Assembly: GCA_964016885.1 (NCBI GenBank)
Contig: OZ024741.1
Coordinates: 215,512,001 to 215,576,000 of the forward strand
Length of the DNA stretch: 64,000 bases
Direction of reading: 5' to 3'
DNA from: Eledone cirrhosa
Taxonomy: Eukaryota
In this document: one piece after another, positions 3,730-63,755 of the stretch
How positions within the stretch are numbered: position 1 is the stretch's first letter
Layout of the letters: the number at the start of each line of letters is the position of its first letter
Position numbers and translations under genes: made by a program
The notes under the pieces: model-generated
Seen by the model: only the letters and a program-made list of their open reading frames with translations
What the model was told of the DNA's origin: nothing
Database searches by the model: none

Positions 3730-3804
3730 TATTTTGAGTTTATGCAGTTTGAATTAGTATGGTATAGACAAGTACTTGTACTTGTCTATACCATGCTAAT
3801 TCAA

Positions 3805-3859
3805 ACTACCTGAAGAGGTCACAGCCAAAGATGGCTGTCACTGAAATATATATAGCAGT
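3805..3859 (+). ncRNA. Type I hammerhead ribozyme motif
   Basis: ACTAC-CTGAAGA-GGTCACAGCCA aaga TGGCTGTCACT-GAAA-TATATA-TA-GCAGT; core intact, palindromic stem III, one mismatch in stem I; preceded by a 31-bp fold-back (3744-3809). Confidence 0.75.
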
Positions 3860-4094
3860 AATAAACGAAGCTAAATTTTAATCATTTGACTTTTATTTAA
3901 CTTTATTTTACAATACTCCGGAGTAACCAAACCAACCTGCGCACTTCGTCGAGTGCTCCAGCCTGCATACTGAGGTGTTGGTATACAACCAACATAAACT
4001 CAAAATATATATATATATATATATAATCAAGGTTTAGCAAATAAGAAAAAGTTTTTAAATAGATTTCCAAAAATTCACTGTACTTACTATGGTT

Positions 4095-4181
4095 ACCTTT
4101 ACCGAACGGTTTCGAGTATCAAAAATAAATGGAAAGTCCTTGCGGGCCTCCATTGAAAATATAAACTCTCGTCAAGAAGGT
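4095..4181 (-). ncRNA. Hammerhead ribozyme motif with a 1-nt insertion in the core (CTTGACGA)
   Basis: Paralogue of 4582-4668; ACCTT-CTTGACGA-GAGT...ACTC-GAAA-CCGTTCGG-TA-AAGGT. Confidence 0.6.
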
Positions 4182-4581
4182 TCTTTTCACTCGGAGAATA
4201 TAAAATTCCCGAGTTCGAATTACGAACTAGCGCTATGCAAAATTGTTCCCGAGATGAGAATGAATGATGTGGAAGCAATTCTGTCCAGTGCCGTGTGAAA
4301 AGATAGAAGGCAGAGGTAGGGGGGTCAATATAATACCACTATAAATAGCAGCAGTCAAAACGACCAAATTTTATCTCGACCAGGGGGAGATTAACAATAA
4401 TAAAGTATATATCCCTACACGCCAAAAACATATAGGGACACATGTATTATCCAACCATATGCCAATGTGGTTCTATGGCAGGTTAATAAATTAACGAGCC
4501 AGAACATTTATAATCAAGGTTTAGCAAATAAGAAAAAGTTTTAAAATAAATTTCAAAAAATTCACTGTACTTACTATGGTT

Positions 4582-4668
4582 ACCTTTACCGAATCGGTTT
4601 CGAGTCTCAAAAATAAATGGATAGTCCTTGCGGGCCTCCATTGAAAAGATAAACTCTCGTCAGAAGGT
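4582..4668 (-). ncRNA. Type I hammerhead ribozyme motif
   Basis: ACCTT-CTGACGA-GAGTTT...AGACTC-GAAA-CCGATTCGG-TA-AAGGT; all core nucleotides and three stems present, GUA cleavage triplet. Confidence 0.85.
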
Positions 4669-4933
4669 TATTTTCACTCGGAGAATATATAAATATATAT
4701 ATATATATATGGGAATACGTGTATATGCGTGCATGTACATGTGTATATAGAGATTTATATATGTGTATACATAACATGTTTTCAACTTGCACAAAAATCC
4801 CAAGGCATCCAACTGACATTGTATATATATACATATATATATATATGTGTCTATATGTATGTGTGCATATATATACACACACACACACACACATATTTTT
4901 ATGTATATATACATATGTATATGTATGTGTATA

Positions 4934-6660: not shown

Positions 6661-6734
6661 TGCATATACATATATATACATACATATGTATGTATATATA
6701 AACATATATATATATTTATATATATATATATATA

Positions 6735-7850
6735 TCATAAAACATGTCTATAGAATCACCAGATAAAATATATACCGTTTCCTCTCCCTATTAGCATAAT
6801 TAACCATATAAAAAATCAATTAGACCAAGCTGTAAGAATAAAGGCTCCTATGAAGAAATCTCCAACAAATAAACGAAAGCAGCCCATTCGCGGCGGTTAC
6901 GACGGATTATTTATCGAATATTTCAACAGCATGTATGAATCAACCAGATATACAGACAACTAAACAGAATTAGGTGTAAAATAAACTAGAAGAAAAGTGT
7001 ACATATTTAATTACCTCTACCATGGTTTCATCCGCATTTTAAGACATCCGATAACATTGGATATCTAGAGCTTCGGATTCTTCAGGAAGTTAGCTCAAAT
7101 TTAGACAATTAATTTTCCAAAGTGATCGCGCCAAGAATACATTCAAAAATGGTTAACAATCGTGATGTGGCAGCGGTCAAGTTAGAAAGGATGTGATTAG
7201 TTGCTTACGGCTTTTGCTAGAAAGCGCAGCCCAATACAGTGAAAATTGTATCTCAACCTAACGGGAGATTATTACATATAAAGGTTTACATATATATATA
7301 AAGTCATAAATATATATGTGTTTTGCAACGGGTCACTTTGTGGCTCAATGAAGAATTAATAAATTAAATAATCAGAGCTATATATCATAAAACATGTCTA
7401 TAGAATCACCAGATAACATATATACCGTTTCCTCTCCCAATTAGCATAATTAACCATATAAAAAATCAATTAGACCAAGCTATAAGAATAAAGGCTCCTA
7501 TGAAGAAATCTCCGACAAATAACCGAAAGCAGCCCCTTCGCGGCGGTTACGACGAATCGTTTATCGAATATTTCGACAGCATGTATGAATCGACCAGATA
7601 TACAGACAACGGAGATTTCTTCATAGGAGCCTTTATTCTTATAGCTTGGTCTAATTGATTTTTTATATGGCTAATTATGCTAATTGGGAGAGGAAACGGT
7701 ATATATTTCATCTGGTGATTCTATAGACATGTTTTATGATATATAGCTCTGATTATTTAATTTATTAATTCTTCATTGAGCCACAAGTGACCCGTTGCAA
7801 AACACATATATTTATGACTTTATATATATATATATATGTAAACCTTTATA
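6735..7850 (-). mobile_element. Penelope-type pLTR-like element: 650-nt partial tandem plus inverted 5' arm, carrying an HHR
   Basis: 6735-6960 repeats at 7385-7610; 7610-7850 is the reverse complement of 7277-7514; (TA)n on both sides. Confidence 0.8.
7013..7090 (-). ncRNA. Type I hammerhead ribozyme motif
   Basis: ACTTC-CTGAAGA-ATCCG...CGGAT-GAAA-CCATGG-TA-GAGGT; palindromic stem III, GUA triplet. Confidence 0.85.
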
Positions 7851-8159
7851 TATATATATATATATATATATATTTCATACAATAACAGAGATAGTTTAAA
7901 GCTAAACTCTGATTGGTAACCATCTCACTCAACAAACATTAGGTTATATTTTAATATAAACCCAATTTAAGTGTTTGGGGTGCTAACAATATGTATTATG
8001 TGGAAAAGCCAGTTGTATTATTTATATATATATATATGCAAACCTTTATATATATATATATATATATATATACAGATGTATATATATGTATATATATATA
8101 CATACTTGCATATACATATATACATACATATATATATATATATATGTATATAAAAATGT

Positions 8160-20834: not shown

Positions 20835-22072
<1,238 letters not shown>

Positions 22073-22600
22073 TCGGATTGGGTGAAATTCAGGTACCTTC
22101 CACACTGGAGAATTGAATGCAATGGAAAAGATATGGAAATCAAACCTGCCGGCCAAACTGAAAAGGAATTTCTTCAGAGCTGCTGTGGAATATGTGCTTG
22201 TTTATGGCTCTATCACTTGGACGCTAACGTCGAAACCGGAGAAAAAGCTAGACGGGGCATACACACGTATGCTCCGCGCTGCTTTAAACGTGTCTTGGAG
22301 GGAACACCCAACAAATAAGGATCACGATGGCAATATACCACCTATCAGCAGGTCAATACGTGGACAGAGACTCAGATTTGCTGGCCACAGTTGGCGCAGC
22401 AAGGAATAAATAGCAGGTGATGTGTTGTTATGGAGTCCATCTCATGGAGCAAGAAACGCTGGTCCTCCCAAGAAGACATACGTCAAGCAACTTGAGGACA
22501 ATACTGGATGCACTGTGGAAGAACTTGCAAACGCTATGAGAGACAGAAATGGATGGAGGAAGCGTGTCGTAGAAAGCCGAGCAAGCTCGACCTGATGATG
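22073..22600 (+). pseudogene. RTE-type LINE C-terminal region and 3' end
   Basis: KIWKSNLPAKLKRNFFRAAVEYVLVYGSITWTLT...LDGAYTRMLRAALNVSW...RLRFAGHSWR...DRNGWR, one internal stop, (TGA)n tail. Confidence 0.9.
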
Positions 22601-26575: not shown

Positions 26576-27155
26576 CTAACAGCGCTGCGATCGAATGTGG
26601 CTTTTTAGCGCAGCCAATGATCTAAAATGTCTTGAACAGAGTCGGCAACCAAAACATTCACTGGGAATAGTCGGCTGTGGTTGGAGTTCGTGTACTTTTG
26701 CATGTCGCTTGAGCCCTCCTGCTGATTTACATTCTCTACCACATGTTTGGCAAGCATGATGAGTAGCATCTCCAACAGCAGCCTGGTAGTCAACCACTGG
26801 TCTTACTTTATGACTGCGAAGATGACTTTCGAGTCCAGCTTTGCTTAGGCAGAGTCTCGCACAGACGCTGCATGTCAGCACCATAGGAGGACCCTCGCCG
26901 TCTGGAAGTGCAACAGCAATGCCCTTCCTCACATCCCGCTTTACTTTCTCATATGCGATTCGAGATGCCTCAAAGGCAACAACTTTTCCCTCATATACAG
27001 TCTTTCTCCATTTATTACGATCAGCAGCAATATTTCCCCATGTATCAGCAGAGATGTTAGCGTCTTTCAGAGAGGCTTTCAAGGAATCCTTATACCTCTT
27101 TTTTGGTTTATGTGGCAGTCGTTTTCCTTTAACCAACTCTCCACACATACTCTCC
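26576..27155 (-). pseudogene. RTE (BovB-like) LINE C-terminus with three C2H2-type zinc fingers, 5' truncated
   Basis: [23 protein letters not shown]....[12 protein letters not shown] is the RTE C-terminal signature; followed by CSVC..HLRSH, CQTC..HAKVH, CRLC..HIRSQ. Confidence 0.85.
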
Positions 27156-27196
27156 ATACATATACATACATATATATATATATTCATATACACACA

Positions 27197-27244
<48 letters not shown>

Positions 27245-28501: not shown

Positions 28502-29770
28502 TGATCTCTTTAAGCAACATAACCTTAAAATTGAATTTGATAACGACGTCAAACTAGTTAATTTCTTGGATATATCCCTTTATCCTGACACTGGTCTATA
28601 TTACCCTGACGATAAAAACAATGAGAATCTAAATTATGTTAATTTTAAATCTAACCCCCCCCCCCCCCCACACTAACATTAAAAATGCTATAGTCAGTAA
28701 TATTGGAAAAAGAATTTCAAACCTATCCTCTAATAAAGATATCTTCGATGCTAAGGACAATTACTATAATAATGCGCTTTCTAAAGCCGGTTATCCTGAT
28801 AAAATTAAATGCAATAAAGAAACCAATCCTAGAAAGTCTTACAGTAAAATAATTAATTATAAACATTCCAATAACTTAAACAAAAGACCTAGATACAAAA
28901 ATATAATCTGGTATAATACTCCTTTCTCTATTTCTATTAATAATAATATTGCTAAACTATTCTTTAGGCCTTAGATAAATGCTTCCCTCCCTCACATATC
29001 TATAGTAAAATCTTTAACAAACATACAATAAAATTTTCTTATTCCACCTCTTCCAATATCTCTAACATTATCTCTAAACACAACAATAAAATATTAAATA
29101 ATAAATCACATCCTTCCAACACTGAGCGTCATAATAATAGCAGTAGTACTTCCGACGTTATTGTTAACTCTAGGCTAGATTCTGTAAACTTAAATACGAC
29201 GTCAAACGTAACTTCGTTCATAATACCAATCTAAATCAGGAAACTATTATTCCTATCGTAAATAACTTCTCCAATCCAATTCCTTCTATAAATAACACTA
29301 GGTCACTTGTTATTAACTCTGTTAATTTCTCAAATCGTAATTGTAATTGCCCTGTTAGAACTAAATGTCCTCTTAATAACCATTGTCTTGATAAAAACTT
29401 AGTCTATGAATGTAAGGTTATAACTGATACCAATTCCTTTACCTATTTCGGTTCCACCTCCACTTCCTTCAAAGCTAGATTTTATAATCACAATTCGTCT
29501 TTTAGATACCAACTTAAAAGAACTAACACGGCCCTCTCGGAACTCATATGGTCCTTGAAAGACAAACATATTAACTATAACATCTCTTGGAGGAAGGTTT
29601 GTTCTGCCTTTCCTTACCTGAATTCTTCCCTATCCAGAACATGTAATCTCTGCCTAGCCGAGAAATTGACCATTATATCTAATTTCAATTCTATAATAAA
29701 TAGACACACGGATTTATTTTCTCTCTGCTTGCATAAATTCCACAGAACATTCCATAAAGTATACAGCTAA
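28499..29770 (+). pseudogene. Penelope-like RT C-terminus plus GIY-YIG endonuclease (frameshifted)
   Basis: VNFLDISL; IGKRISNLSSN..YYNNALSKAGY; NIIWYNTPFS; CNCPVRTKCPLNNHCLDKNLVYECKV..TYFGSTSTSFKARFYNH..LSELIWSLK..CNLCLAEK. Confidence 0.9.
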
Positions 29771-31492: not shown

Positions 31493-31659
31493 TAAGTATG
31501 TATACGTACATACATATATGTATACAGACGTACAGTAGTATGTATATATACATACGAATGAGTTTTACAGTAGATTGGAAGCACTCTACAGTGATATTTT
31601 CCAGAGTTATTAATATTAATTCAAATATTAACAAAATAGATATTCTTGTGATCAATTAA

Positions 31660-31724
31660 ATTTTATTATACATATTTCAGAGGTACTGAATTAAGTTTAA
31701 CAGTACGTCTTCATCAGATAAAAT
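31660..31724 (-). ncRNA. Type I hammerhead ribozyme motif
   Basis: ATTTTAT-CTGATGA-AGACGTACTG...CAGTACCTCT-GAAA-TATGTA-TA-ATAAAAT. Confidence 0.85.
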
Positions 31725-32988
31725 AAAATGATACATGACATATATACATGACAAATATAAATATATATAAATATATATATGATACATGACAAATATAAAT
31801 ATATTTGTACAAACTATATATAGTTTCATTAATACTTAATATATCTCTATATATAGTTGTTTAAATATATTTATATTGTTTAATAACATAATCATAGTTA
31901 CATTTGTATAACAATAATTATAATTACGATTTTTATTAAATGTTTACCATCCCATTAAGCCTAGTACATCTATATATAGTTTTATACAAATATTTGTATC
32001 TAGGATAACATAATCATAGTTACACTTATATAGATAATGTAAACACCCAAATGACATTATTATAAGTGTTTGGTCTTCCCTGGAAGGCCGAACTTATATA
32101 ATCATTTACTTAATATAATATATGAACTAATAATAAATTATAGTTCGGTTTTCCCTAGAAGGTCGAACTTATATAATCACTTACTTAATATGATATATGA
32201 ACAAATAATAAATTATAGTCCTGGTATTATGATCAATACACACATATATATATAGCTGAAAACTCTGACTCCTTTAGGTTTAATTATAAGACCTGCTAAT
32301 ACTTTAGGCACTGTAACTATTTAACAATAAATTCCTTAATAGTTATGATTGTAAATATCTCATAAATTATAATATAGAAAATGTTGTCAGTGTTATAAGT
32401 AATTTTGTTAAAGATTACCTTTGTGGGAATATTGAACATTATATCTATAATTTCTTTCTTTCGCGGGCCTGGTAAATCCTTTAAATTTGTCTTCATAGAA
32501 TTTTGAATTTTAGAAATTTAACATAATTATATTATAATATTAATACAAATACCCATCAACTTTTAAAACCTAAAATTATGATTCTTTACCCTGAAATAAC
32601 ATAAACTAAAAAATTTGAAATGTAACCGCCAAAGCTATATGTGTTTATGTGTGTCTAAAGAAAGTGAGCATAAATTACTCCCCTTTGTCTCTCCCTCTCT
32701 TTAATTATCTATCATTTGTCTTCTCAAGCTAAATACTAAATAAGTTATAGCTTTAGATACGTCTTCCTCTATACTTTCCTGTGCCACATAATTCTATAGT
32801 AGTATTTCAAATTCTATAACTGTTGCATTAAGGCAATGTTTTTCTTACTCACACTCTCTCTATTGATTCTATTACGTTTTCACATGTTCTCATTATTAGG
32901 GTATAAATATTGAGTTTTCTCATAAGTTAATCATACCTTGATTAAATCTTAACCATCTAACATGTCAGGGTATGTCATGTATCATTTT

Positions 32989-33053
32989 ATTTTATCTGAT
33001 GAGGACGTACTGTTAAACTTAATTCAGTACCTCTGAAATATGTATAATAAAAT
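32989..33053 (+). ncRNA. Type I hammerhead ribozyme motif
   Basis: ATTTTAT-CTGATGA-GGACGTACTG...CAGTACCTCT-GAAA-TATGTA-TA-ATAAAAT. Confidence 0.85.
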
Positions 33054-33115
33054 TTAATTGAACACAAGAATATCTATTTTGTTAATATTTGAATTAATAT
33101 ATATATATATATATA

Positions 33116-36819: not shown

Positions 36820-39800
36820 AGTTACACCTACCACATGTAGTAATGACAACAACAACAACAACAACAGTTACACCTACCACATGTAGTAATGACAACAACA
36901 ACAACAACAACAACAGTTACACCTGCCACAGGTAGTAACAACAACAACAACAACAGTTACACCTGCCACAGGTAGTAACAACAACAACAACAGTTACATC
37001 TGCCACAGGTAGTAACAACAACAACAACAACAGTTACACCTGCCACAGGTAGTAACAACAACAACAACAACAGTTACACCTGCCACAGGTAGTAACAACA
37101 ACAACAACAACAGTTACACCTGCCACAGGTAGTAACAACAACAACAACAACAACAGTTACATCTGCCACAGGTAGTAACAACAACAACAACAACAGTTAC
37201 ACCTGCCACAGGTAGTAACAACAACAACAACAGTTACACCTGCCACAGGTAGTAACAACAACAACAACAACAGTTACACCTGCCAGAGGTAGTAACAACA
37301 ACAACAACAACAACAGTTACACCTGTCACAGGTAGTAACAACAACAACAACAACAGTTACACCTGCCACAGGTAGTAACAACAACAACAACAACAGTTAC
37401 ACCTGCCACAGGTAGTAACAACAACAACAACAACAGTTACACCTGCCACAGGTAGTAACAACAACAACAACAGTTACACCTGACACAGGTAGTAACAACA
37501 ACAACAACAACAGTTACACCTGCCACAGGTAGTAACAACAACAACAACAACAGTTACACCTGCCACAGGTAGTAACAACAACAACAACAGTCACACCTGC
37601 CACAGGTAGTAACAACAACAGCAACAACAACAACAGTTACACCTGCCACAGGTAGTAACATCAACAGCAACAACAACAAAAGTTACACCTGCCACAGGTA
37701 GTAACAACAACAACAACAACAACAACAACAGTTACACCTGCCACAGGTAGTAACAACAACAGCAACAACAACAACAGTTACACCTGCCACAGGTAGTAAC
37801 AACCACAACAACAACAGTTACACCAGTCACAGGTAGTAACAACAACAGCAACAACAACTACAGTTACACCTGCCACAGGTAGTAACAACAACAACAACAA
37901 CAACAGTTACACCAGTCACAGGTAGTAACAATAACAACAACAACAACAGTTACACCTGCCACAGGTAGTAACAACAACAACAACAACAACAGTTACACCT
38001 GCCACAGGTAGTAACAACAGCAACAACAGTTACACCTGTCACAGGTAGTAACAACAACAACAGCAACAACAACAACAGTTACACCTGGCACAGGTAGTAA
38101 CAACAACAACAACAACAGTTACACCTGTCACAGGTAGTAACAACAACAACAGCAACAACAACAGTTACACCTGTCACAGGTAGTAACAATAACAACAGCA
38201 ACAATAACAGTTACACCTGTCACAGGTAGTAACAACAACAACAACAGCAACAACAGCAGTTACACCTGTCACAGGAAGTAACAACAACAACAGCAACAAC
38301 GACAGTTACACCTGCCACAGGTAGTAACAACAACAACAACAACAACAGTTACACCAGTCACAGGTAGTAACAACAACAACAACAACAACAACAGTTACAC
38401 CTGCCACAGGTAGTAACAACAACAACAACAACAACAGTTACACCTGCCACAGGTAGTAACAACAGCAACAACAGTTACACCTGTCACAGGTAGTAACAAC
38501 AACAACAGCAACAACAACAACAGTTACACCTGGCACAGGTAGTAACAACAACAACAACAACAGTTACACCTGTCACAGGTAGTAACAACAACAACAGCAA
38601 CAACAACAGTTACACCTGTCACAGGTAGTAACAATAACAACAGCAACAATAACAGTTACACCTGTCACAGGTAGTAACAACAACAACAACAGCAACAACA
38701 GCAGTTACACCTGTCACAGGAAGTAACAACAACAACAGCAACAACGACAGTTACACCTGCCACAGGTAGTAACAACAACAACAACAACAACAACAGTTAC
38801 ACCTGTCACAGGTAGTAACAATAACAACAGCAACAATAACAGTTACACCTGTCACAGGTAGTAACAACAACAACAACAGCAACAACAGCAGTTACACCTG
38901 TCACAGGAAGTAACAACAACAACAGCAACAACGACAGTTACACCTGCCACAGGTAGTAACAACAACAACAGCAACAACATCAGTTACACCTGTCACAGGT
39001 AGTAACAATAACAACAGCAACAATAACAGTTACACCTGTCACAGGTAGTAACAACAACAACAACAGCAACAACAGCAGTTACACTTGTCACAGGAAGTAA
39101 CAACAACAACAGCAACAACGACAGTTACACCTGCCACAGGTAGTAACAACAACAACAGCAACAACAACAGTTACACCTGTCACAGGTAGTAACAATAACA
39201 ACAGCAACAATAACAGTTACACCTGTCACAGGTAGTAACAACAACAACAACAGCAACAACAGCAGTTACACCTGTCACAGGAAGTAACAACAACAACAGC
39301 AACAACGACAGTTACACCTGCCACAGGTAGTAACAACAACAACAGCAACAACAACAGTTACACCTGTCACAGGTAGTAACAACAACAACAACAACAATAA
39401 CAGTTACACCTGTCACAGGTAGTAACAACAACAACAACAGCAACAACAGCAGTTACACCTGCCACAGGTAGTAACAACAACAACAGCAACAACAACAGTT
39501 ACACCTGCCACATGTAGTAACAACAACAACAACAGTTACACCTGCCACAGGTAGTAACAATAACAACAACAACAACAGTTACACCTGCCACAGGTAGTAA
39601 CAACAACAACAACAGTTACACCTGCCACAGGTAGTAACAACAACAACAACAGTTACACCTGCCACAGGTAGTAACAACAACAACAACAACAGTTACACCT
39701 GTCACAGGTAATAATGACAACAACAACAACAGTTACACCTGCCACAGGTAATAACGACAACAACAACAACAGTTACACCTGCCACAGGTAGTAACAACAA

Positions 39801-42800
39801 CAACAACAACAGTTACATCTGCCACAGGTAGTAACAACAACAACAACAACAGTTACACCTGTCACAGGTAGTAACAACAACAACAACAACAGTTACACCT
39901 GCCACAGGTAATAACAACAACAACAACAACAGTTACACCTGCCACAGGTAGTAACAACAAAAACAACAACAGTTACACCTGTCACAGGTAGTAACAACAA
40001 CAACAACAGTTACACCTGCCACAGGTAGTAACAACAACAACAACAGTTACACCTGCCACAGGTAGTAACAACAACAACAACAACAGTTACACCTGCCACA
40101 GGTAGTAACAACAACAACAACAGTTACACCTGCCACAGGTAGTAACAACAACAACAACAACAGTTACATCTGCCACAGGTGGTAACAACAACAACAACAA
40201 CAGTTACATCTGCCACAGGTGGTAACAACAACAACAACAACAGTTACATCTGCCACAGGTGGTAACAACAACAACAACAACAGTTACATCTGCCACAGGT
40301 AGTAACAACAACAACAACAACAGTTACATCTGCCACAGGTAGTAACAACAACAACAACAACAGTTACACCTGTCACAGGTAGTAACAACAACAACAACAA
40401 CAGTTACACCTGCCACAGGTAATAACAACAACAACAACAACAGTTACACCTGCCACAGGTAGTAACAACAACAACAACAACAGTTACATCTGCCACAGGT
40501 GGTAACAACAACAACAACAACAGTTACATCTGCCACAGGTGGTAACAACAACAACAACAACAGTTACATCTGCCACAGGTGGTAACAACAACAACAACAA
40601 CAGTTACACCTGCCACAGGTAGTAACAACAACAACAACAACAGTTACATCTGCCACAGGTGGTAACAACAACAACAACAACAGTTACATCTGCCACAGGT
40701 GGTAACAACAACAACAACAACAGTTACATCTGCCACAGGTGGTAACAACAACAACAACAACAGTTACACCTGCCACAGGTAGTAACAACAACAACAACAA
40801 CAACAGTTACACCTGTCACAGGTAGTAACAACAACAACAGCAACAACAACAGTTACACCTGGCACAGGTAGTAACAACAACAACAACAGTTACACCTGTC
40901 ACAGGTAGTAGCAACAACAACAGCAACAACAACAGTTACACCTGTCACAGGTAGTAACAACAACAACAACAACAACAACAGTTACATCTGCTACAGGTGG
41001 GAACAACAACAACAACAACAGTTACACCTGCCACAGGTAATAACAACAACAACAACAACAGTTACACCTGCCACAGGTAGTAACAACAACAACAACAACA
41101 GTTACACCTGCCACAGGTAGTAACAACAACAACAACCGTTACACCTGCCACAGGTAGTAACAACAACAACAACAACAGTTACACCTGCCACATGTGGTAA
41201 CAACAACAACAACAACAACAGTTACACCTGCCACAGGTGGTAACAACAACAACAACAACAACAGTTACACCTGCCACATGTGGTAACAACAACAACAACA
41301 ACAACAGTTACACCTGCCACATGTGGTAACAACAACAACAACAACAACAGTTACACCTGCCACATGTGGTAACAACAACAACAACAACAACAGTTACACC
41401 TGCCACAGGTAGTAACAACAACAACAACAGTTACACCTGCCACAGGTAGTAACAACAACAACAACAACAGTTACACCTGCCACAGGTGGTAACAACAACA
41501 ACAACAACAGTTACATCTGCCACAGGTAGTAACAACAACAACAACAGTTACACCTGCCACAGGTAGTAACAACAACAACAACAGTTACACCTGCCACAGG
41601 TAGTAACAACAACAACAACAACAACAACAACAGTTACACCTGCCACAGGTAGTAACGACAACAACAACAGTTACACCTGCCACAGGTAGTAACAACAACA
41701 ACAACAACAACAACAACAGTTACACCTGTCACAGGTAGTAACAACAACAACAACAACAGTTACACCTGCCACAGGTAATAACAACAACAACAACAACAGT
41801 TACACCTGCCACAGGTAATAACAACAACAACAATAACAGTTACACCTGCCACAGGTAGTAACAACAACAACAATAACAGTTACACCTGCCACAGGTAGTA
41901 ACAACAACAACAGTTACACCTGACACAGGTAGTAACAACAACAACAACAACAGTTACACCTGCCACAGGTAGTAACAACAACAACAACAACTACAGTTAC
42001 ACCTGACACAGGTAGTAACAACAACAACAACAGTTACATCTGCCACAGGTAGTAACAACAACAACAGTTACACCTGCCACAGGTAGTAACAACAACAACA
42101 GTTACACCTGCCACAGGTAGTAACAACGACAACAACAGTTACACCTGCCACAGGTAGTAACAACAACAACAGTTACACCTGTCACAGGTAATAATAACAA
42201 CAACAACAACAGTTACACCTGTCACAGGTAGTAACAACAACAACGACAACAGTTACACCTGTCACAGGTAGTAACAACAACAACAGTTACACCTGTCACA
42301 GGTAGTAACAACAACAACAACAACAGTTACACCTGTCACAGGTAGTAACAACAACAACAACAACAGTTACACCTGCCACAGGTAGTAACAACAACAACAA
42401 CAGTTACACCTGTCACAGGTAGTAACAACAACAACAACAACAGTTACACCTGCCACAGGTAGTAACAACAACAACAGCAACAACAACAGTTACACCTGCC
42501 ACAGGTAGTAACAACAACAACAGCAACAACAACAGTTACACCTGACACAGGTAGTAACAACAACAACAACAAGAGTTACACCTGCCACAGGTAGTAACAA
42601 CCACAACAACAACAGTTACACCTGCCACAGGTAGTAACAACCACAACAACAACAGTTACACCTGCCACAGGTAGTAACAACAACAACAACAGTTACACCT
42701 GCCACAGGTAGTAACAACAACAACAGCAACAACAACAGTTACACCTGCCACAGGTAGTAACAACAACAACAACAACAGTTACACCTGCCACAGGTAGTAA

Positions 42801-45800
42801 CAACAACAACAACAACAGTTACACCTGCCACAGGTAGTAACAACCACAACAACAACAGTCACACCTGCCACAGGTAGTAACAACAACAACAACAGTTACA
42901 CCTGTCACAGGTAGTAACAACAACAACAACAGTTACACCTGTCACAGGTAGTAACAACAACAACAACAACAGTCACACCTGCCACAGGTAGTAACAACAA
43001 CAACAACAACAGTTACACCTGTCACAGGTAGTAACAACAACAACAACAACAGTTACACCTGCCACAGGTAGTAACAACAACAACAACAACAGTTACACCT
43101 GCCACAGGTAGTAACAACAACAACAACAACAGTTACACCTGTCACAGGTAGTAACAACAACAACAACAACAGTCACACCTGCCACAGGTAGTAACAACAA
43201 CAACAGTTACAACTGCCACAGGTAGTAACAACAACAACAGTTACACCTGTCACAGGTAATAACAACAACAACAACAGTCACACCTGCCACAGGTAGCAAC
43301 AACAACAACAACAACAGTTACACCTGTCACAGGTAGTAACAACAACAACAACAACAGTCACACCTGCCACAGGTAGTAACAACAACAACAGTTACACCTG
43401 TCACAGGTAGTAACAACAACAACAACAACAGTTACACCTGCCACAGGTAGTAACAACAACAACAACAACAGTTACACCTGCCACAGGTAGTAACAACAAC
43501 AACAACAACAGTTACACCTGCCACAGGTAGTAACAACAACAACAACAACAGTTACATCTGCCACAGGTAGTAACAACAACAACAGTTACACCTGTCACAG
43601 GTAATAACAACAACAACAACAACAGTTACACCTGTCACAGGTAGTAACAACAACAACAACAACAGTCACACCTGCCACAGGTAGTAACAACAACAACAGT
43701 TACAACTGCCACAGGTAGTAACAACAACAACAGTTACACCTGTCACAGGTAATAACAACAACAACAACAGTCACACCTGCCACAGGTAGCAACAACAACA
43801 ACAACAACAGTTACACCTGTCACAGGTAGTAACAACAACAACAACAACAGTTACACCTGCCACAGGTAGCAACAACAACAACAACAACAGTTACACCTGT
43901 CACAGGTAGTAACAACAACAACAACAACAGTTACACCTGCCACAGGTAGTAACAACAACAACAACAACAGTTACACCTGCCACAGGTAGTAACAACAACA
44001 ACAACAACAGTTACACCTGCCACAGGTAGTAACAACAACAACAACAACAGTTACACCTGTCACAGGTAATAACAACAACAACAACAGTCACACCTGCCAC
44101 AGGTAGTAACAACAACAACAACAACAGTTACACCTGCCACAGGTAGTAACAACAACAACAACAACAGTTACACCTGTCACAGGTAATAACAACAACAACA
44201 ACAGTCACACCTGCCACAGGTAGTAACAACAACAACAACAACAGTCACACCTGCCACAGGTAGTAACAACAACAACAACAACAGTTACACCTGCCACAGG
44301 TAGTAACAACAACAACAACAGTCACACCTGTCACAGGTAGTAACAACAACAACAACAACAGTTACACCTGCCACAGGTAGTAACAACAACAACAACAACA
44401 GTTACACCTGCCACAGGTAGTAACAACAACAACAGCAACAGTTACACCTGCCACAGGTAGTAACAACAACAACAACAACAGTTACACCTGCCACAGGTAG
44501 TAACAACAACAACAACAACAGTTACACCTGCCACAGGTAGTAACAACAACAACAACAACAGTTACACCTGCCACAGGTAGTAACAACAACAACAACAACA
44601 GTTACACCTGCCACAGGTAGTAACAACAACAACAACAACAGTTACACCTGTCACAGGTAGTAACAACAACAACAACAACAGTCACACCTGCCACAGGTAG
44701 TAACAACAACAACAACAACAGTTACACCTGCCACAGGTAGTAACAACAACAACAACAACAGTCACACCTGTCACAGGTAGTAACAACAACAACAACAACA
44801 GTTACATCTGCCACAGGTAGTAACAACAACAACAGTTACACCTGTCACAGGTAATAACAACAACAACAACAGTCACACCTGTCACAGGTAGTAACAACAA
44901 CAACAACAACAGTTACACCTGCCACAGGTAGTAACAACAACAACAGTTACACCTGTCACAGGTAGTAACAACAACAACAACAACAGTTACACCTGCCACA
45001 GGTAGTAACAACAACAACAACAACAGTTACACCTGCCACAGGTAGTAACAACAACAACAACAACAGTTACACCTGCCACAGGTAGTAACAACAACAACAA
45101 CAACAGTTACACCTGCCACAGGTGATAACAACAACAACAACAACAGTTACACCTGTCACAGGTAGTAACAACAACAACAACAGTTACACCTGTCACAGGT
45201 AATAACAACAACAACAACAGTCACACCTGTCACAGGTAGTAACAACAACAACAACAACAGTTACACCTGCCACAGGTAGTAACAACAACAACAACAACAG
45301 TCACACCTGTCACAGGTAGTAACAACAACAACAACAACAGTCACACCTGCCACAGGTAGCAACAACAACAACAACAACAGTTACACCTGTCACAGGTAGT
45401 AACAACAACAACAACAACAGTCACACCTGCCACAGGTAGTAACAACAACAACAACAACAGTCACACCTGCCACAGGTAGCAACAACAACAACAACAACAG
45501 TTACACCTGTCACAGGTAGTAACAACAACAACAACAACAGTCACACCTGTCACAGGTAGTAACAACAACAACAACAACAGTCACACCTGCCACAGGTAGC
45601 AACAACAACAACAACAACAGTTACACCTGTCACAGGTAGTAACAACAACAACAACAACAGTCACACCTGCCACAGGTAGTAACAACAACAACAACAACAG
45701 TCACACCTGCCACAGGTAGCAACAACAACAACAACAACAGTTACACCTGTCACAGGTAGTAACAACAACAACAACAACAGTCACACCTGTCACAGGTAGT

Positions 45801-48800
45801 AACAACAACAACAACAACAGTTACACCTGCCACAGGTAGTAACAACAACAACAACAACAGTTACACCTGCCACAGGTAGTAACAACAACAACAACAACAG
45901 TCACACCTGTCACAGGTAGTAACAACAAGAACAACAACAGTCACACCTGTCACAGGTAGTAACAACAACAACAACAACAGTCACACCTGCCACAGGTAGC
46001 AACAACAACAACAACAACAGTTACACCTGTCACAGGTAGTAACAACAACAACAACAACAGTTACACCTGCCACAGGTAGTAACAACAACAACAACAACAG
46101 TCACACCTGCCACAGGTAGCAACAACAACAACAACAACAGTTACACCTGTCACAGGTAGTAACAACAACAACAACAACAGTCACACCTGCCACAGGTAGT
46201 AACAACAACAACAACAACAGTTACACCTGCCACAGGTAGTAACAACAACAACAACAACAGTTACATCTGCCACAGGTAGTAACAACAACAACAGTTACAC
46301 CTGTCACAGGTAATAACAACAACAACAACAGTCACACCTGTCACAGGTAGTAACAACAACAACAACAACAGTTACACCTGCCACAGGTAGTAACAACAAC
46401 AACAACAACAGTTACACCTGCCACAGGTAGTAACAACAACAACAACAACAGTTACACCTGCCACAGGTAGTAACAACAACAACAACAACAGTTACACCTG
46501 TCACAGGTAATAACAACAACAACAACAGTCACACCTGTCACAGGTAGTAACAACAACAACAACAACAGTTACACCTGCCACAGGTAGTAACAACAACAAC
46601 AACAACAGTTACACCTGCCACAGGTAGTAACAACAACAACAGTTACACCTGTCACAGGTAATAACAACAACAACAACAGTCACACCTGCCACAGGTAGCA
46701 ACAACAACAACAGTTACACCTGTCACAGGTAATAACAACACAACAACAGTTACACCTGCCACAGGTAGTAACAACAACAACAGTTACACCTGTCACAGGT
46801 AATAACAACAACAACAACAGTTACACCTGCCACAGGTAGTAACAACAACAACAACAACAACAGTTACATCTGCCACAGGTAGTAACAACAACAACAACAA
46901 CAGTTACACCTGCCACAGGTAGTAACAACAACAACAATAACAGTTACACCTGCCACAGGTAGTAACAACAACAACAGTTACACCTGTCACAGGTAATAAC
47001 AACAACAACAACAGTCACACCTGCCACAGGTAGCAACAACAACAACAGTTACACCTGTCACAGGTAATAACAACAACAACAACAACAGTTACACCTGCCA
47101 CAGGTAGTAACAACAACAACAACAACAGTTACACCTGTCACAGGTAATAACAACAACAACAACAGTTACACCTGCCACAGGTAGTAACAACAACAACAAC
47201 AGTTACAACTGCCACAGGTAGTAACAACAACAACAGTTACACCTGTCACAGGTAATAACAACAACAACAACAGTCACACCTGCCACAGGTAGCAACAACA
47301 ACAACAACAACAGTTACACCTGTCACAGGTAGTAACAACAACAACAACAACGGTTACACCTGCCACAGGTAGTAACAACAACAACAACAACAGTTACACC
47401 TGCCACAGGTAGTAACAACAACAACAACAACAACAGTTACACCTGCCACAGGTAGTAACAACAACAACAACAACAGTTACACCTGCCACAGGTAGTAACA
47501 ACAACAACAACAACAGTTACATCTGCCACAGGTAGTAACAACAACAACAACAACAGTTACACCTGCCACAGGTAGTAACAACAACAACAACAACAGTCAC
47601 ACCTGCCACAGGTAGTAACGACAACAACAACAACAGTTACACCTGTCACAGGTAGTAACAACAACAACAGCAACAACAACAGTTACACCTGCCACAGGTA
47701 GTAACAACAACAACAGTTACACCTGTCACAGGTAATAACAACAACAACAACAGTCACACCTGCCACAGGTAGTAACAACAACAACAACAACAGTCACACC
47801 TGCCACAGGTAGTAACGACAACAACAACAACAGTTACACCTGTCACAGGTAGTAACAACAACAACAGCAACAACAACAGTTACACCTGCCACAGGTAGTA
47901 ACAACAACAACAGTTACACCTGTCACAGGTAGTAACAACAACAACAACAACAGTTACACCTGCCACAGGTAGTAACAACAACAACAACAACAGTTACACC
48001 TGCCACAGGTAGTAACAACAACAACAACAACAGTTACACCTGTCACAGGTAGTAACAACAACAACAGCAACAACAACAGTTACACCTGCCACAGGTAGTA
48101 ACAACAACAACAGTTACACCTGTCACAGGTAGTAACAACAACAACAGTTACACCTGTCACAGGTAGTAACAACAACAACAACAACAGTTACATCTGCCAC
48201 AGGTAGTAACAACAACAACAACAACAGTTACACCTGCCACAGGTAGTAACAACAACAACAATAACAGTTACACCTGCCACAGGTAGTAACAACAACAACA
48301 GTTACACCTGTCACAGGTAATAACAACAACAACAACAGTCACACCTGCCACAGGTAGCAACAACAACAACAGTTACACCTGTCACAGGTAATAACAACAA
48401 CAACAACAACAGTTACACCTGCCACAGGTAGTAACAACAACAACAACAACAGTTACACCTGTCACAGGTAGTAACAACAACAACAACAACAGTTACACCT
48501 GCCACAGGTAGTAACAACAACAACAACAACAGTTACACCTGCCACAGGTAGTAACAACAACAACAACAACAGTTACACCTGCCACAGGTAGTAACAACAA
48601 CAACAACAACAGTTACACCTGCCACAGGTAGTAACAACAACAACAACAACAGTTACACCTGCCACAGGTAATAACAACAACAACAACAACAGTTACACCT
48701 GCCACAGGTAGTAACAACCACAACAACAACAGTCACACCTGCCACAGGTAGTAACAACAACAACAACAACAGTTACACCTGTCACAGGTAACAACAACAA

Positions 48801-50697
48801 CAACAACAGTTACACCTGCCACAGGTAGTAACAACAACAACAACATCAGTTACACCTGCCACAGGTAGTAACAACAACAACAGTTACACCTGCCACAGGT
48901 AGTAACAACAACAACAGTTACACCTGCCACAGTTAGTAACAACAACAACAACAACAGTTACACCTGTCACAGGTAGTAACAACAACAACAACAACAGTTA
49001 CACCTGCCACAGGTAGTAACAACAACAACAACAACAGTTACACCTGTCACAGGTAGTAACAACAACAACAACAACAGTTACACCTGTCACAGGTAGTAAC
49101 AACAACAACAACAACAACAGTTACATCTGCCACAGGTAGTAACAACAACAACAACAACAACATCAGTTACACCTGTCACAGGTAGTAACAACAACAACAA
49201 CAACAGTTACACCTACCACATGTAGTAATGACAACAACAACAACAACAACAACAGTTACACCTGCCACAGGTAGTAACAACAACAACAACAACAGTTACA
49301 CCTGCCACAGGTAGTAACAACAACAACAACAACAGTTACACCTGCCACAGTTAGTAACAACAACAACAACAACAGTTACACCTGTCACAGGTAGTAACAA
49401 CAACAACAACAACAGTTACATCTGCCACAGGTAGTAACAACAACAACAACAACAGTCACACCTGCCACAGGTAGTAACAACAAAAACAACAACAGTTACA
49501 CCTGCCACAGTTAGTAACAACAACAACAACAACAGTTACACCTGTCACAGGTAGTAACAACAACAACAACAACAGTTACACCTGCCACAGGTAGTAACAA
49601 CAACAACAACAACAGTCACATCTGCCACAGGTAGTAACAACAACAACAACAACAGTTACACCTGTCACAGGTAACAACAACAACAACAACAGTTACACCT
49701 GCCACAGGTAGTAACAACAACAACAACATCAGTTACACCTGCCACAGGTAGTAACAACAACAACAACAACAACAGTTACACCTGCCACAGGTAATAACAA
49801 CAACAACAACAGTTACACCGGCCACAGGTAGTAACAACAACAACAACAACAACAACAACAGTTGCAGCTGTCACAGGTAGTAACAACAACAACAACAACA
49901 GTTACACCTGTCACAGGTAGTAACAACAACAACAACAACAGTCACACCTGCCACAGGTAGTAACAACAACAACAACAACAGTTACACCTGCCACAGGTAG
50001 TAACAACAACAACAACAACAGTCACACCTGCCACAGGTAGTAACAACAACAACAACAACAGTTACACCTGTCACAGGTAGTAACAACAACAACAACAACA
50101 GTTACACCTGCCACAGGTAGTAACAACAACAACAACAACAGTCACACCTGCCACAGGTAGTAACAACAACAACAACAACAGTTACACCTGCCACAGGTAG
50201 TAACAACAACAACAACAACAGTCACACCTGCCACAGGTAGTAACAACAACAACAACAACAGTTACACCTGCCACAGGTAGTAACAACAACAACAACAGTC
50301 ACACCTGCCACAGGTAGTAACAACAACAACAACAGTTACACCTGCCACAGGTAGTAACAACAACAACAACAACAGTCACACCTGCCACAGGTAGTAACAA
50401 CAACAACAACAACAGTTACACCTGCCACAGGTAGTAACAACAACAACAACAACAGTCACACCTGCCACAGGTAGTAACAACAACAACAACAACAGTTACA
50501 CCTGCCACAGGTAGTAACAACAACAACAACAACAGTCACACCTGCCACAGGTAGTAACAACAACAACAACAACAGTTACACCTGCCACAGGTAGTAACAA
50601 CAACAACAACAACAGTCACACCTGCCACAGGTAGTAACAACAACAACAACAACAGTTACACCTGTCACAGGTAGTAACAACAACAACAACAACAACA
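36820..50697. repeat. ~13.9 kb minisatellite: AGTTACACCTGCCACAGGTAGT + (AAC)n, roughly 340 units (estimated from length / ~40 bp)
   Basis: Constant 22-bp core with hairpin GTTAC-ACCTG-cca-CAGGT-a-GTAAC and a variable AAC count. Confidence 0.98.
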
Positions 50698-63221: not shown

Positions 63222-63755
63222 TGTGAACGATTTGGCCACTACATCACGTCTCATAGGTAGATAGTACCGTCATGACACCTTTGGGCAGCTGCTTATGACA
63301 TGTGTGATATCTTCGATGTTAATTCTGCAGAGTCTGCACTTGTTATCACATCTAGGTGTTTTGCCTACATCCCTATTGCTTTTATAGATCAGGTATTTTG
63401 TATTGATTTCCTGTTGTTGGTTTGCAAAAGCATATCCTTCAATATGGGAGCCAATATAGCGGTTGTTGGTCCAAGATAGACTACTTTCCTTATCTATATT
63501 ACTCTCACTCGGTAGCTTCCTGGCAACATATCCGTGCATGATTTTTTGCTGATAAACATGCAGTTTTCGATCCATAGATACATTGCGGTATTGCTGAGAA
63601 ATGTCCTAAAATTTTGAGTTTTTTATTATTATCCAGGGAGTATATTTCAAGGAGTTCCTTCCCAACTCTCATGATCTTATCTATCTCATGCAGACAGACT
63701 GCCGGTTTCTCACAGAGATAAGACTCTTTCATTGGAATATAGACATCAACTTGGT
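63222..63755 (-). pseudogene. R4/Dong-like (restriction-like endonuclease type) LINE fragment with CCHC knuckle
   Basis: KIMHG...IDKESSLSW...IEGYAFANQQQEINTK...CRLCRINIEDITHVISSCP matches the post-RT/CCHC region of R4-clade elements. Confidence 0.75.

What the first reader, a model, noticed from the sequence alone, without database searches (positions are those of the whole stretch)
4022..4686. Two HHRs exactly 487 nt apart in a partial tandem
Seen: direct repeats, each with the same minus-strand HHR; one copy is intact and the other has a 1-nt core insertion; no coding capacity; (TA)n flanks. Inference: a read-through transcript would be cut twice to release a 487-nt monomer able to circularise. 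The 1.35-unit genomic copy is what reverse transcription of a circular or tandem template would leave.
Basis: partly seen in the sequence, partly recalled or inferred. Interest (0 to 1): 0.72.

Follow-up and report, generated by a model that had tools for sequence, protein, structure and literature searches.

The report
Penelope-mobilised hammerhead retrozyme copy
This is one aged copy of a scattered, high-copy, non-coding 487-base repeat that carries a predicted self-cutting RNA; the ends of its copies match those of Penelope-type jumping genes, so it is likely pasted in by their enzyme, probably from a circular RNA, a kind of element already known in other animals.

Summary
Observation confirmed. 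Two minus-strand type I hammerheads have predicted cut sites 487 nt apart (4587/4586, 4100/4099). The downstream one has a private core insertion and a stem II mismatch, so this locus probably cannot be cut twice today. It is one copy of a dispersed family (643 and 1358 exact matches to two short words). Fold and core are conserved, with compensatory changes.

Copies are not freely permuted: 138 of 149 arms end at one of two sites about 74 and 175-195 nt past the cut site, mostly in (TA)n; 5' ends are truncated at many places; 33 of 39 back-to-back pairs join one arm of each kind. A resident RT+GIY-YIG Penelope-like element shows the same geometry, but no arm joins an ORF. The 1.37-unit length is just one truncation.

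Repeats inside an insertion share their haplotype (94.5% vs 64.7% between insertions), which favours a monomer bottleneck, likely a circle. A circle is not shown: no RNA data. Verdict: new family of animal non-LTR retrozymes. The scan already noted this architecture on other DNA.

The parts
4026..4689 (-). Whole insertion: 1.37 units of a 487-nt non-coding hammerhead repeat, 5'-truncated at about 4689, 3' end at the family's fixed short end
4582..4668 (-). Type I hammerhead A, intact (core 4663-4657, GAAA 4601-4598, GUA 4589-4587; predicted cut 4587/4586)
4095..4182 (-). Type I hammerhead B, damaged (extra U in core, stem II mismatch); nominal cut 4100/4099
4100..4586 (-). Predicted 487-nt monomer from cut site to cut site; strongly structured (z -5.5)
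   Evidence: family majority folded as a circle z -6.7
4643..4675 (-). Possible pseudoknot or alternative helix, 4675-4669 with 4649-4643 (5' flank of stem I with the internal loop of stem II); inferred
   Evidence: one compensatory pair, one pair often broken
4505..4513 (-). Internal copy of the short 3'-end site (UA-rich, unit 178-186, after a long hairpin); inferred RT start site 1
4392..4414 (-). Long 3'-end site (UA-rich, unit 277-299, after a long hairpin); inferred RT start site 2, used mostly by inverted arms elsewhere
4006..4025 (.). (TA)n target at the 3' end
4690..4710 (.). (TA)n target at the 5' end

Best explanation
This is a 5'-truncated copy of a dispersed non-coding hammerhead repeat family with fixed 3' ends in (TA)n, likely a non-autonomous retroelement (animal non-LTR retrozyme) copied by a Penelope-like RT/GIY-YIG enzyme, probably from a self-cut and circularised 487-nt RNA. 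Steps: (1) a locus with two intact ribozymes is transcribed (inferred; source of transcription unknown). (2) It is cut at both sites and the monomer is ligated (inferred from conserved core and covariation, and from retrozymes of other animals). (3) The PLE enzyme nicks (TA)n and starts cDNA at one of two internal UA-rich sites, about 74 and 175-195 nt past the cut site (the ends are shown; the enzyme is inferred). (4) RT runs back through the cut site, at times more than one full turn, and stops at variable places (shown as copy structure). (5) When both target strands are extended, one arm starts at each site, giving back-to-back arms (shown as structure; a single-RNA mechanism is inferred). 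This locus is probably no longer a donor, since its second ribozyme is damaged.
For: High copy number and dispersal: 3252 candidates, 40 other near-full matches at 91-95%; 643 and 1358 exact word matches against 0 reversed controls; 100 listed of 103 copies of one subfamily are dispersed with no run of three. Ribozyme under selection: core differs from the family majority at 1.9% of positions against 4.5% at other non-polymorphic ones, and 104 of 131 cores are intact; 7 of 27 pairs have two-sided changes, 95.6% paired against 33-61% when slid. Ends: 100 + 38 of 149 arms at two sites, 134 of 149 followed by TA; 33 of 39 inverted pairs short+long, none short+short or long+long. A resident PLE (RT+GIY-YIG, 938 aa) has ends 72-77 and 142-151 nt after its own hammerhead site, short+long in 3 of 3 of its inverted pairs. 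PLE RT starts at two internal sites and extends both strands in vitro (PMC11167929, parts 1-2 of 4 read). Monomer bottleneck: the two passes of an insertion differ by 4.0% against 8.1% between insertions, share 25 rare variants against 1.9 expected, and no directional difference recurs in more than 4 of 49; concordance at polymorphic sites 867 of 917 against 64.7%. 154 of 155 crossed junctions have no deletion at the cut site.
Against: No cleavage or circle is observed here. In the one PLE tested in vitro, hammerhead cleavage was dispensable and uncut RNA was the main substrate (PMC11167929). No autonomous element homologous to the unit was found in 50 GIY-YIG loci, so the partner is unidentified. 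Nearest-neighbour folding does not favour the hammerhead fold in long context (stem I probability about 0). An insertion's own second pass was the nearest sequence in only 15 of 49 cases (9 ties, 25 losses), so homogenisation is shown at haplotype level, not molecule by molecule. Only 6 of 112 position-sampled arms hold two whole ribozymes. Compensatory changes amount to about five lineage events, not independent sequences. Samples were seeded on two words and come mostly from one chromosome.
Confidence: 0.6

Rival explanations
1. Same PLE machinery, but the template is linear: an uncut or partly cut tandem transcript, or cut monomers joined by RT template jumping. No circle is needed.
For: Uncut RNA is the main PLE substrate in vitro and HHR mutants still insert (PMC11167929). 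5' ends are 2- to 5-fold enriched around the cut site: 8 against 1.65 expected at unit 101-105, 5 against 1.3 in loci not seen when the idea arose, 17 loci against 6 and 6 in genome-wide junction controls (p about 0.047). Young tandems have near-identical units anyway.
Against: Pure read-through copying cannot keep unit 1 and unit 2 alike across many haplotypes without conversion or a monomer step. No long master array among 100 listed copies. Junctions are precise (154 of 155). About 10 of the 17 junction starts lie 4 or more nt upstream of the scissile bond, which fits pausing at structure better than run-off from a cut end.
Confidence: 0.3
2. The repeats are only terminal (pLTR) fragments of an autonomous PLE, left by 5' truncation; there is no independent small element.
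For: End geometry, (TA)n target and inverted arms are PLE traits. Only 50 of 150 scored GIY-YIG loci (10597 candidates) were examined.
Against: Upstream of a full unit the sequence returns to the same unit (29 of 112 position-sampled arms exceed 487 nt; up to 3.14 units). No arm of 149 continues into an ORF; PLE fragments in these loci are separate neighbours.
Confidence: 0.06
3. A DNA-level tandem duplication or satellite, with repeats kept alike by gene conversion; the hammerhead is incidental.
For: Neighbouring repeats can be converted. No expression is shown.
Against: Dispersed copies, fixed 3' and variable 5' ends, strict short+long inverted pairs that also share haplotypes (398 of 426), and selection on the ribozyme core and stems.
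Confidence: 0.04

Closest known systems
Metazoan non-LTR retrozymes (Cervera and de la Pena 2020, PMC7229834: passages and Discussion read; review PMC7761336: passages; Li, Clavereau and Pollet 2026, 10.64898/2026.07.22.740005: parts 1-3 of 5 read)
   Same: Type I hammerhead in each unit of a short non-coding tandem repeat, GC below 50% (37% here), no LTR, structured monomer, co-occurrence with PLEs, which those papers propose as the mobiliser.
   Different: Unit 487 nt (above the 150-450 bp range in the 2020 paper, within the 51-972 bp of the 2026 preprint); long stem II with an internal loop; mostly dispersed partial copies rather than arrays; no homologous pLTR found; circles and cleavage were shown for coral, mussel and axolotl, not here.
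EN+ Penelope-like elements (Craig et al. 2021, PMC8557442: passages read; Frangieh et al. 2024, PMC11167929: parts 1-2 of 4 read)
   Same: Partial tandems, inverted 5'-truncated copy, optional tail between two RT start sites downstream of the hammerhead, microsatellite or AT-rich targets.
   Different: No RT or endonuclease ORF; tail about 100-120 nt rather than 30-40; hammerhead has a real stem III, whereas PLE hammerheads are described as minimal; the two arms use different start sites strictly, whereas the in vitro study saw no strand difference in start site.
Plant LTR retrozymes and viroid-like circles (search listings and introductions only)
   Same: Hammerhead-bounded, highly structured predicted monomer.
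   Different: Type I rather than type III ribozyme, no LTR organisation, PLE-like ends; RNA-to-RNA replication not tested.

Membership tests
Animal non-LTR retrozyme | Type I hammerhead in each repeat unit | tested here: met
   104 of 131 cores intact; copy B at this locus damaged
Animal non-LTR retrozyme | Short tandem units, some loci with two complete ribozymes | tested here: met
   32 arms with two or more whole ribozymes, 21 with both cores free of substitutions or deletions (insertions not scored, so this locus is wrongly among the 21)
Animal non-LTR retrozyme | No protein coding, no LTR organisation, GC below 50% | tested here: met
   PBS and PPT not searched for
Animal non-LTR retrozyme | Dispersed high-copy genomic occurrence beside PLEs | tested here: met
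Animal non-LTR retrozyme | Self-cleavage of the transcript | not testable with these tools
   Indirect only: core conservation, covariation, modest 5'-end excess near the site
Animal non-LTR retrozyme | Circular monomer RNA in vivo | not testable with these tools
   No raw RNA reads available; indirect support
Autonomous Penelope-like element | RT + GIY-YIG ORF within the unit | tested here: not met
Autonomous Penelope-like element | Insertion signature: partial tandem, 5' truncation, inverted arm, tail, microsatellite target | tested here: met
Non-autonomous derivative of a given PLE | Sequence homology to the pLTR of an autonomous family | tested here: inconclusive
   No match beyond 22-23 nt AT-rich hits in 50 loci examined of 150 scored; similar stem I framing and short-end distance in the L061 family

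The most novel reading that the evidence does not exclude
One 487-nt circular RNA is copied by a Penelope-like enzyme dimer that primes both strands of a (TA)n break at two different hairpin-plus-UA sites on the same circle and rolls round it with strand displacement. The genome thus records rolling-circle, twin-primed retrotransposition of a ribozyme circle, and the circle may shield itself from re-cutting by an alternative pairing of the 3' strand of stem I (unit 105-109 with 171-175).
Probability: 0.35. Interest if true: 0.6.

Novelty: new member of a known kind. Interest (0 to 1): 0.33.

Why it matters
How animal retrozymes get back into the genome is proposed, not shown, in the papers read. 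This family gives a small defined substrate and sharp predictions (two start sites, one per strand; products longer than one unit from a circle) that an existing in vitro PLE assay could test. The locus itself is an ordinary decayed copy, and the scan has noted the same architecture in other families and genomes, which limits surprise.

Tried and rejected
Rfam: no hammerhead match at gathering or E-value 10, only microsatellite-driven miRNA noise. Sequencing runs: no RNA holder listed; the one run laid is of unrecorded kind, contigs only, and may be the source sample. Partner search: no homology to 50 GIY-YIG loci. A-to-I editing scars: no A>G excess over T>C in shared (20 vs 41) or unshared (27 vs 42) variants, so this test cannot separate circle from tandem. 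Run-off at the cut site: 5' ends are enriched near it but spread over unit 97-105, so I do not count it as proof of cleavage. Own-pass-nearest test was uninformative to adverse. Long master array: none among 100 listed of 103 copies of one subfamily; collapsed arrays cannot be excluded. Freely permuted 3' ends and linear cut monomers primed at their own 3' end: rejected (1 of 149 arms ends near the cut site), with the caveat that both seed words disfavour such arms. The top-30 BLAST loci are biased to long copies and were left out of length and 5'-end counts; overlapping duplicates and 1 edge-cut arm were dropped and nearby same-strand pieces merged (207 hits to 165 to 149 arms). Literature: 7 searches returned no listing that describes this family or strict short+long pairing in retrozymes; the library lacks most subscription papers, and no supplements were read (bioRxiv ones are closed), so they may list such families.

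Full report
Unit positions count along the minus strand from window 4690 (position p = window 4691 - p in the upstream copy). The predicted cut lies after position 104.

Observation. The two repeats (4019-4205, 4506-4692) are 94.6% identical and 487 apart. Copy A holds a complete type I hammerhead, which the local fold recovers and my core-and-stem scan finds (6 cores in the window against 0.03 per control window). Copy B has an extra U in the core, a stem II mismatch and a shorter loop III. The extra U is private (1 of 55). The element has no frame over 79 aa and sits in (TA)n. Rfam does not detect it.

Family. The genome is 3.0 Gb. A DNA search gave 3252 candidates and 40 other near-full-length matches at 91-95% among 40 scored candidates. 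Two exact words give 643 and 1358 matches with 0 in reversed controls. One subfamily word gives 103 matches; the 100 listed are spread over many contigs with five same-strand pairs and no triple.

Ribozyme. Among 131 complete copies, 104 keep all core bases; the core differs at 1.9% of positions against 4.5% elsewhere in the motif. On 55 aligned copies the named structure is 95.6% paired, 7 of 27 pairs change on both sides, and slid controls fall to 33-61%. These changes trace to about five lineage events. A seven-pair helix between positions 16-22 and 42-48 may be the tertiary contact, but one of its pairs is broken in 23 of 54 copies. The predicted monomer is far more structured than shuffles (z -5.5; circular z -6.7), but the hammerhead is not the favoured fold in long context. 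Activity is inferred, not shown.

Ends. I mapped 149 arms: 112 from 75 loci taken in positional order on one chromosome, the rest from the best BLAST loci. 100 end at 174-187, 38 at 277-299 and 11 elsewhere; 134 are followed by TA. 5' ends are scattered; the median arm is 322 nt, 29 of 112 exceed one unit, and the longest is 3.14 units. Of 39 back-to-back pairs, 33 join a short-end and a long-end arm and none joins two of a kind. Single arms use the short end in 41 of 48 cases. No arm runs into an ORF. So the ends are fixed on the 3' side, and 1.37 units is one truncation among many.

Machinery. The genome holds many GIY-YIG loci. One family with a 938-aa RT+GIY-YIG frame (RT just under the Pfam cut-off) ends in (TA)n 72-77 or 142-151 nt after its own hammerhead-like site, short+long in 3 of 3 inverted pairs. 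Our short end is 74 nt after the cut. Such tails and inverted copies are described for PLEs (PMC8557442, passages), and a purified PLE starts RT at two internal sites and extends both strands (PMC11167929). No sequence homology to the unit was found in 50 loci, so the partner family is not identified.

Template. A linear cut monomer primed at these sites would give copies that stop at the cut, yet 53 of 75 arms not seeded on the ribozyme cross it and 154 of 155 crossings are free of deletion. The template is thus circular or multimeric, or RT jumps precisely. In 49 insertions with overlapping passes, the passes differ by 4.0% against 8.1% between insertions, share 25 rare variants against 1.9 expected, and show no recurrent unit-1 versus unit-2 difference. 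They agree at 94.5% of polymorphic sites against 64.7%, and inverted arms at 93.4% against 57%. Many haplotypes, each alike in both passes, call for a monomer step, most simply a circle. Against this: uncut RNA served the PLE tested in vitro; the own-pass-nearest test was won in only 15 of 49; and 5' ends are enriched near the cut site, though over half of the genome-wide cases start upstream of the bond, which suggests pausing. No editing scars were found.

Comparison and verdict. The element meets the testable criteria of animal non-LTR retrozymes (PMC7229834; PMC7761336; preprint 10.64898/2026.07.22.740005) and works like a non-autonomous PLE; it is not an autonomous PLE. The scan holds no look-alike by sequence but 591 notes with these words, several with the same twin-arm pattern; I had reached that reading before the look-up. 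It is a new family of a known kind. The genomic footprints are clean and testable; cleavage, circle and partner remain inferred.

Noticed in passing
window 3730-4010: A different element abutting the same (TA)n run, with a minimal hammerhead on the + strand at about 3803-3860 and a 62-nt palindrome at 3746-3807; related copies in L008, L018, L024.
   Followed up: partly
window 6729-7873: Another hammerhead repeat (core at 7085, minus strand) as a partial tandem of about 650-nt period plus an inverted arm; same architecture, different family.
   Followed up: partly
window 6169 (+), 31717 (-), 32996 (+), 61778 (-): Minimal PLE-type hammerheads; 31613-31742 and 32971-33100 form an inverted pair at 98% identity.
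   Followed up: no
window 29174-29767 (+): 198-aa Cys-rich frame that looks by eye like a PLE GIY-YIG endonuclease fragment; no Pfam hit.
   Followed up: partly
window 36897-50694: 13.8-kb minisatellite, 40-bp unit, about 343 copies, strong strand skew.
   Followed up: no
L062:7500-8400: A further hammerhead tandem of 459-nt period with a long stem II, in (TA)n just downstream of a PLE.
   Followed up: no
L061:2432 and 7411 (-); L077: Resident PLE hammerhead-like motifs have U and A at the core positions that are normally the C3-G8 pair, a possible compensated variant (numbering recalled).
   Followed up: no
window 21671-22406, 26579-27241, 63273-63605: Fragments that look like LINE-type RT and zinc-finger frames; judged by eye only.
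   Followed up: no
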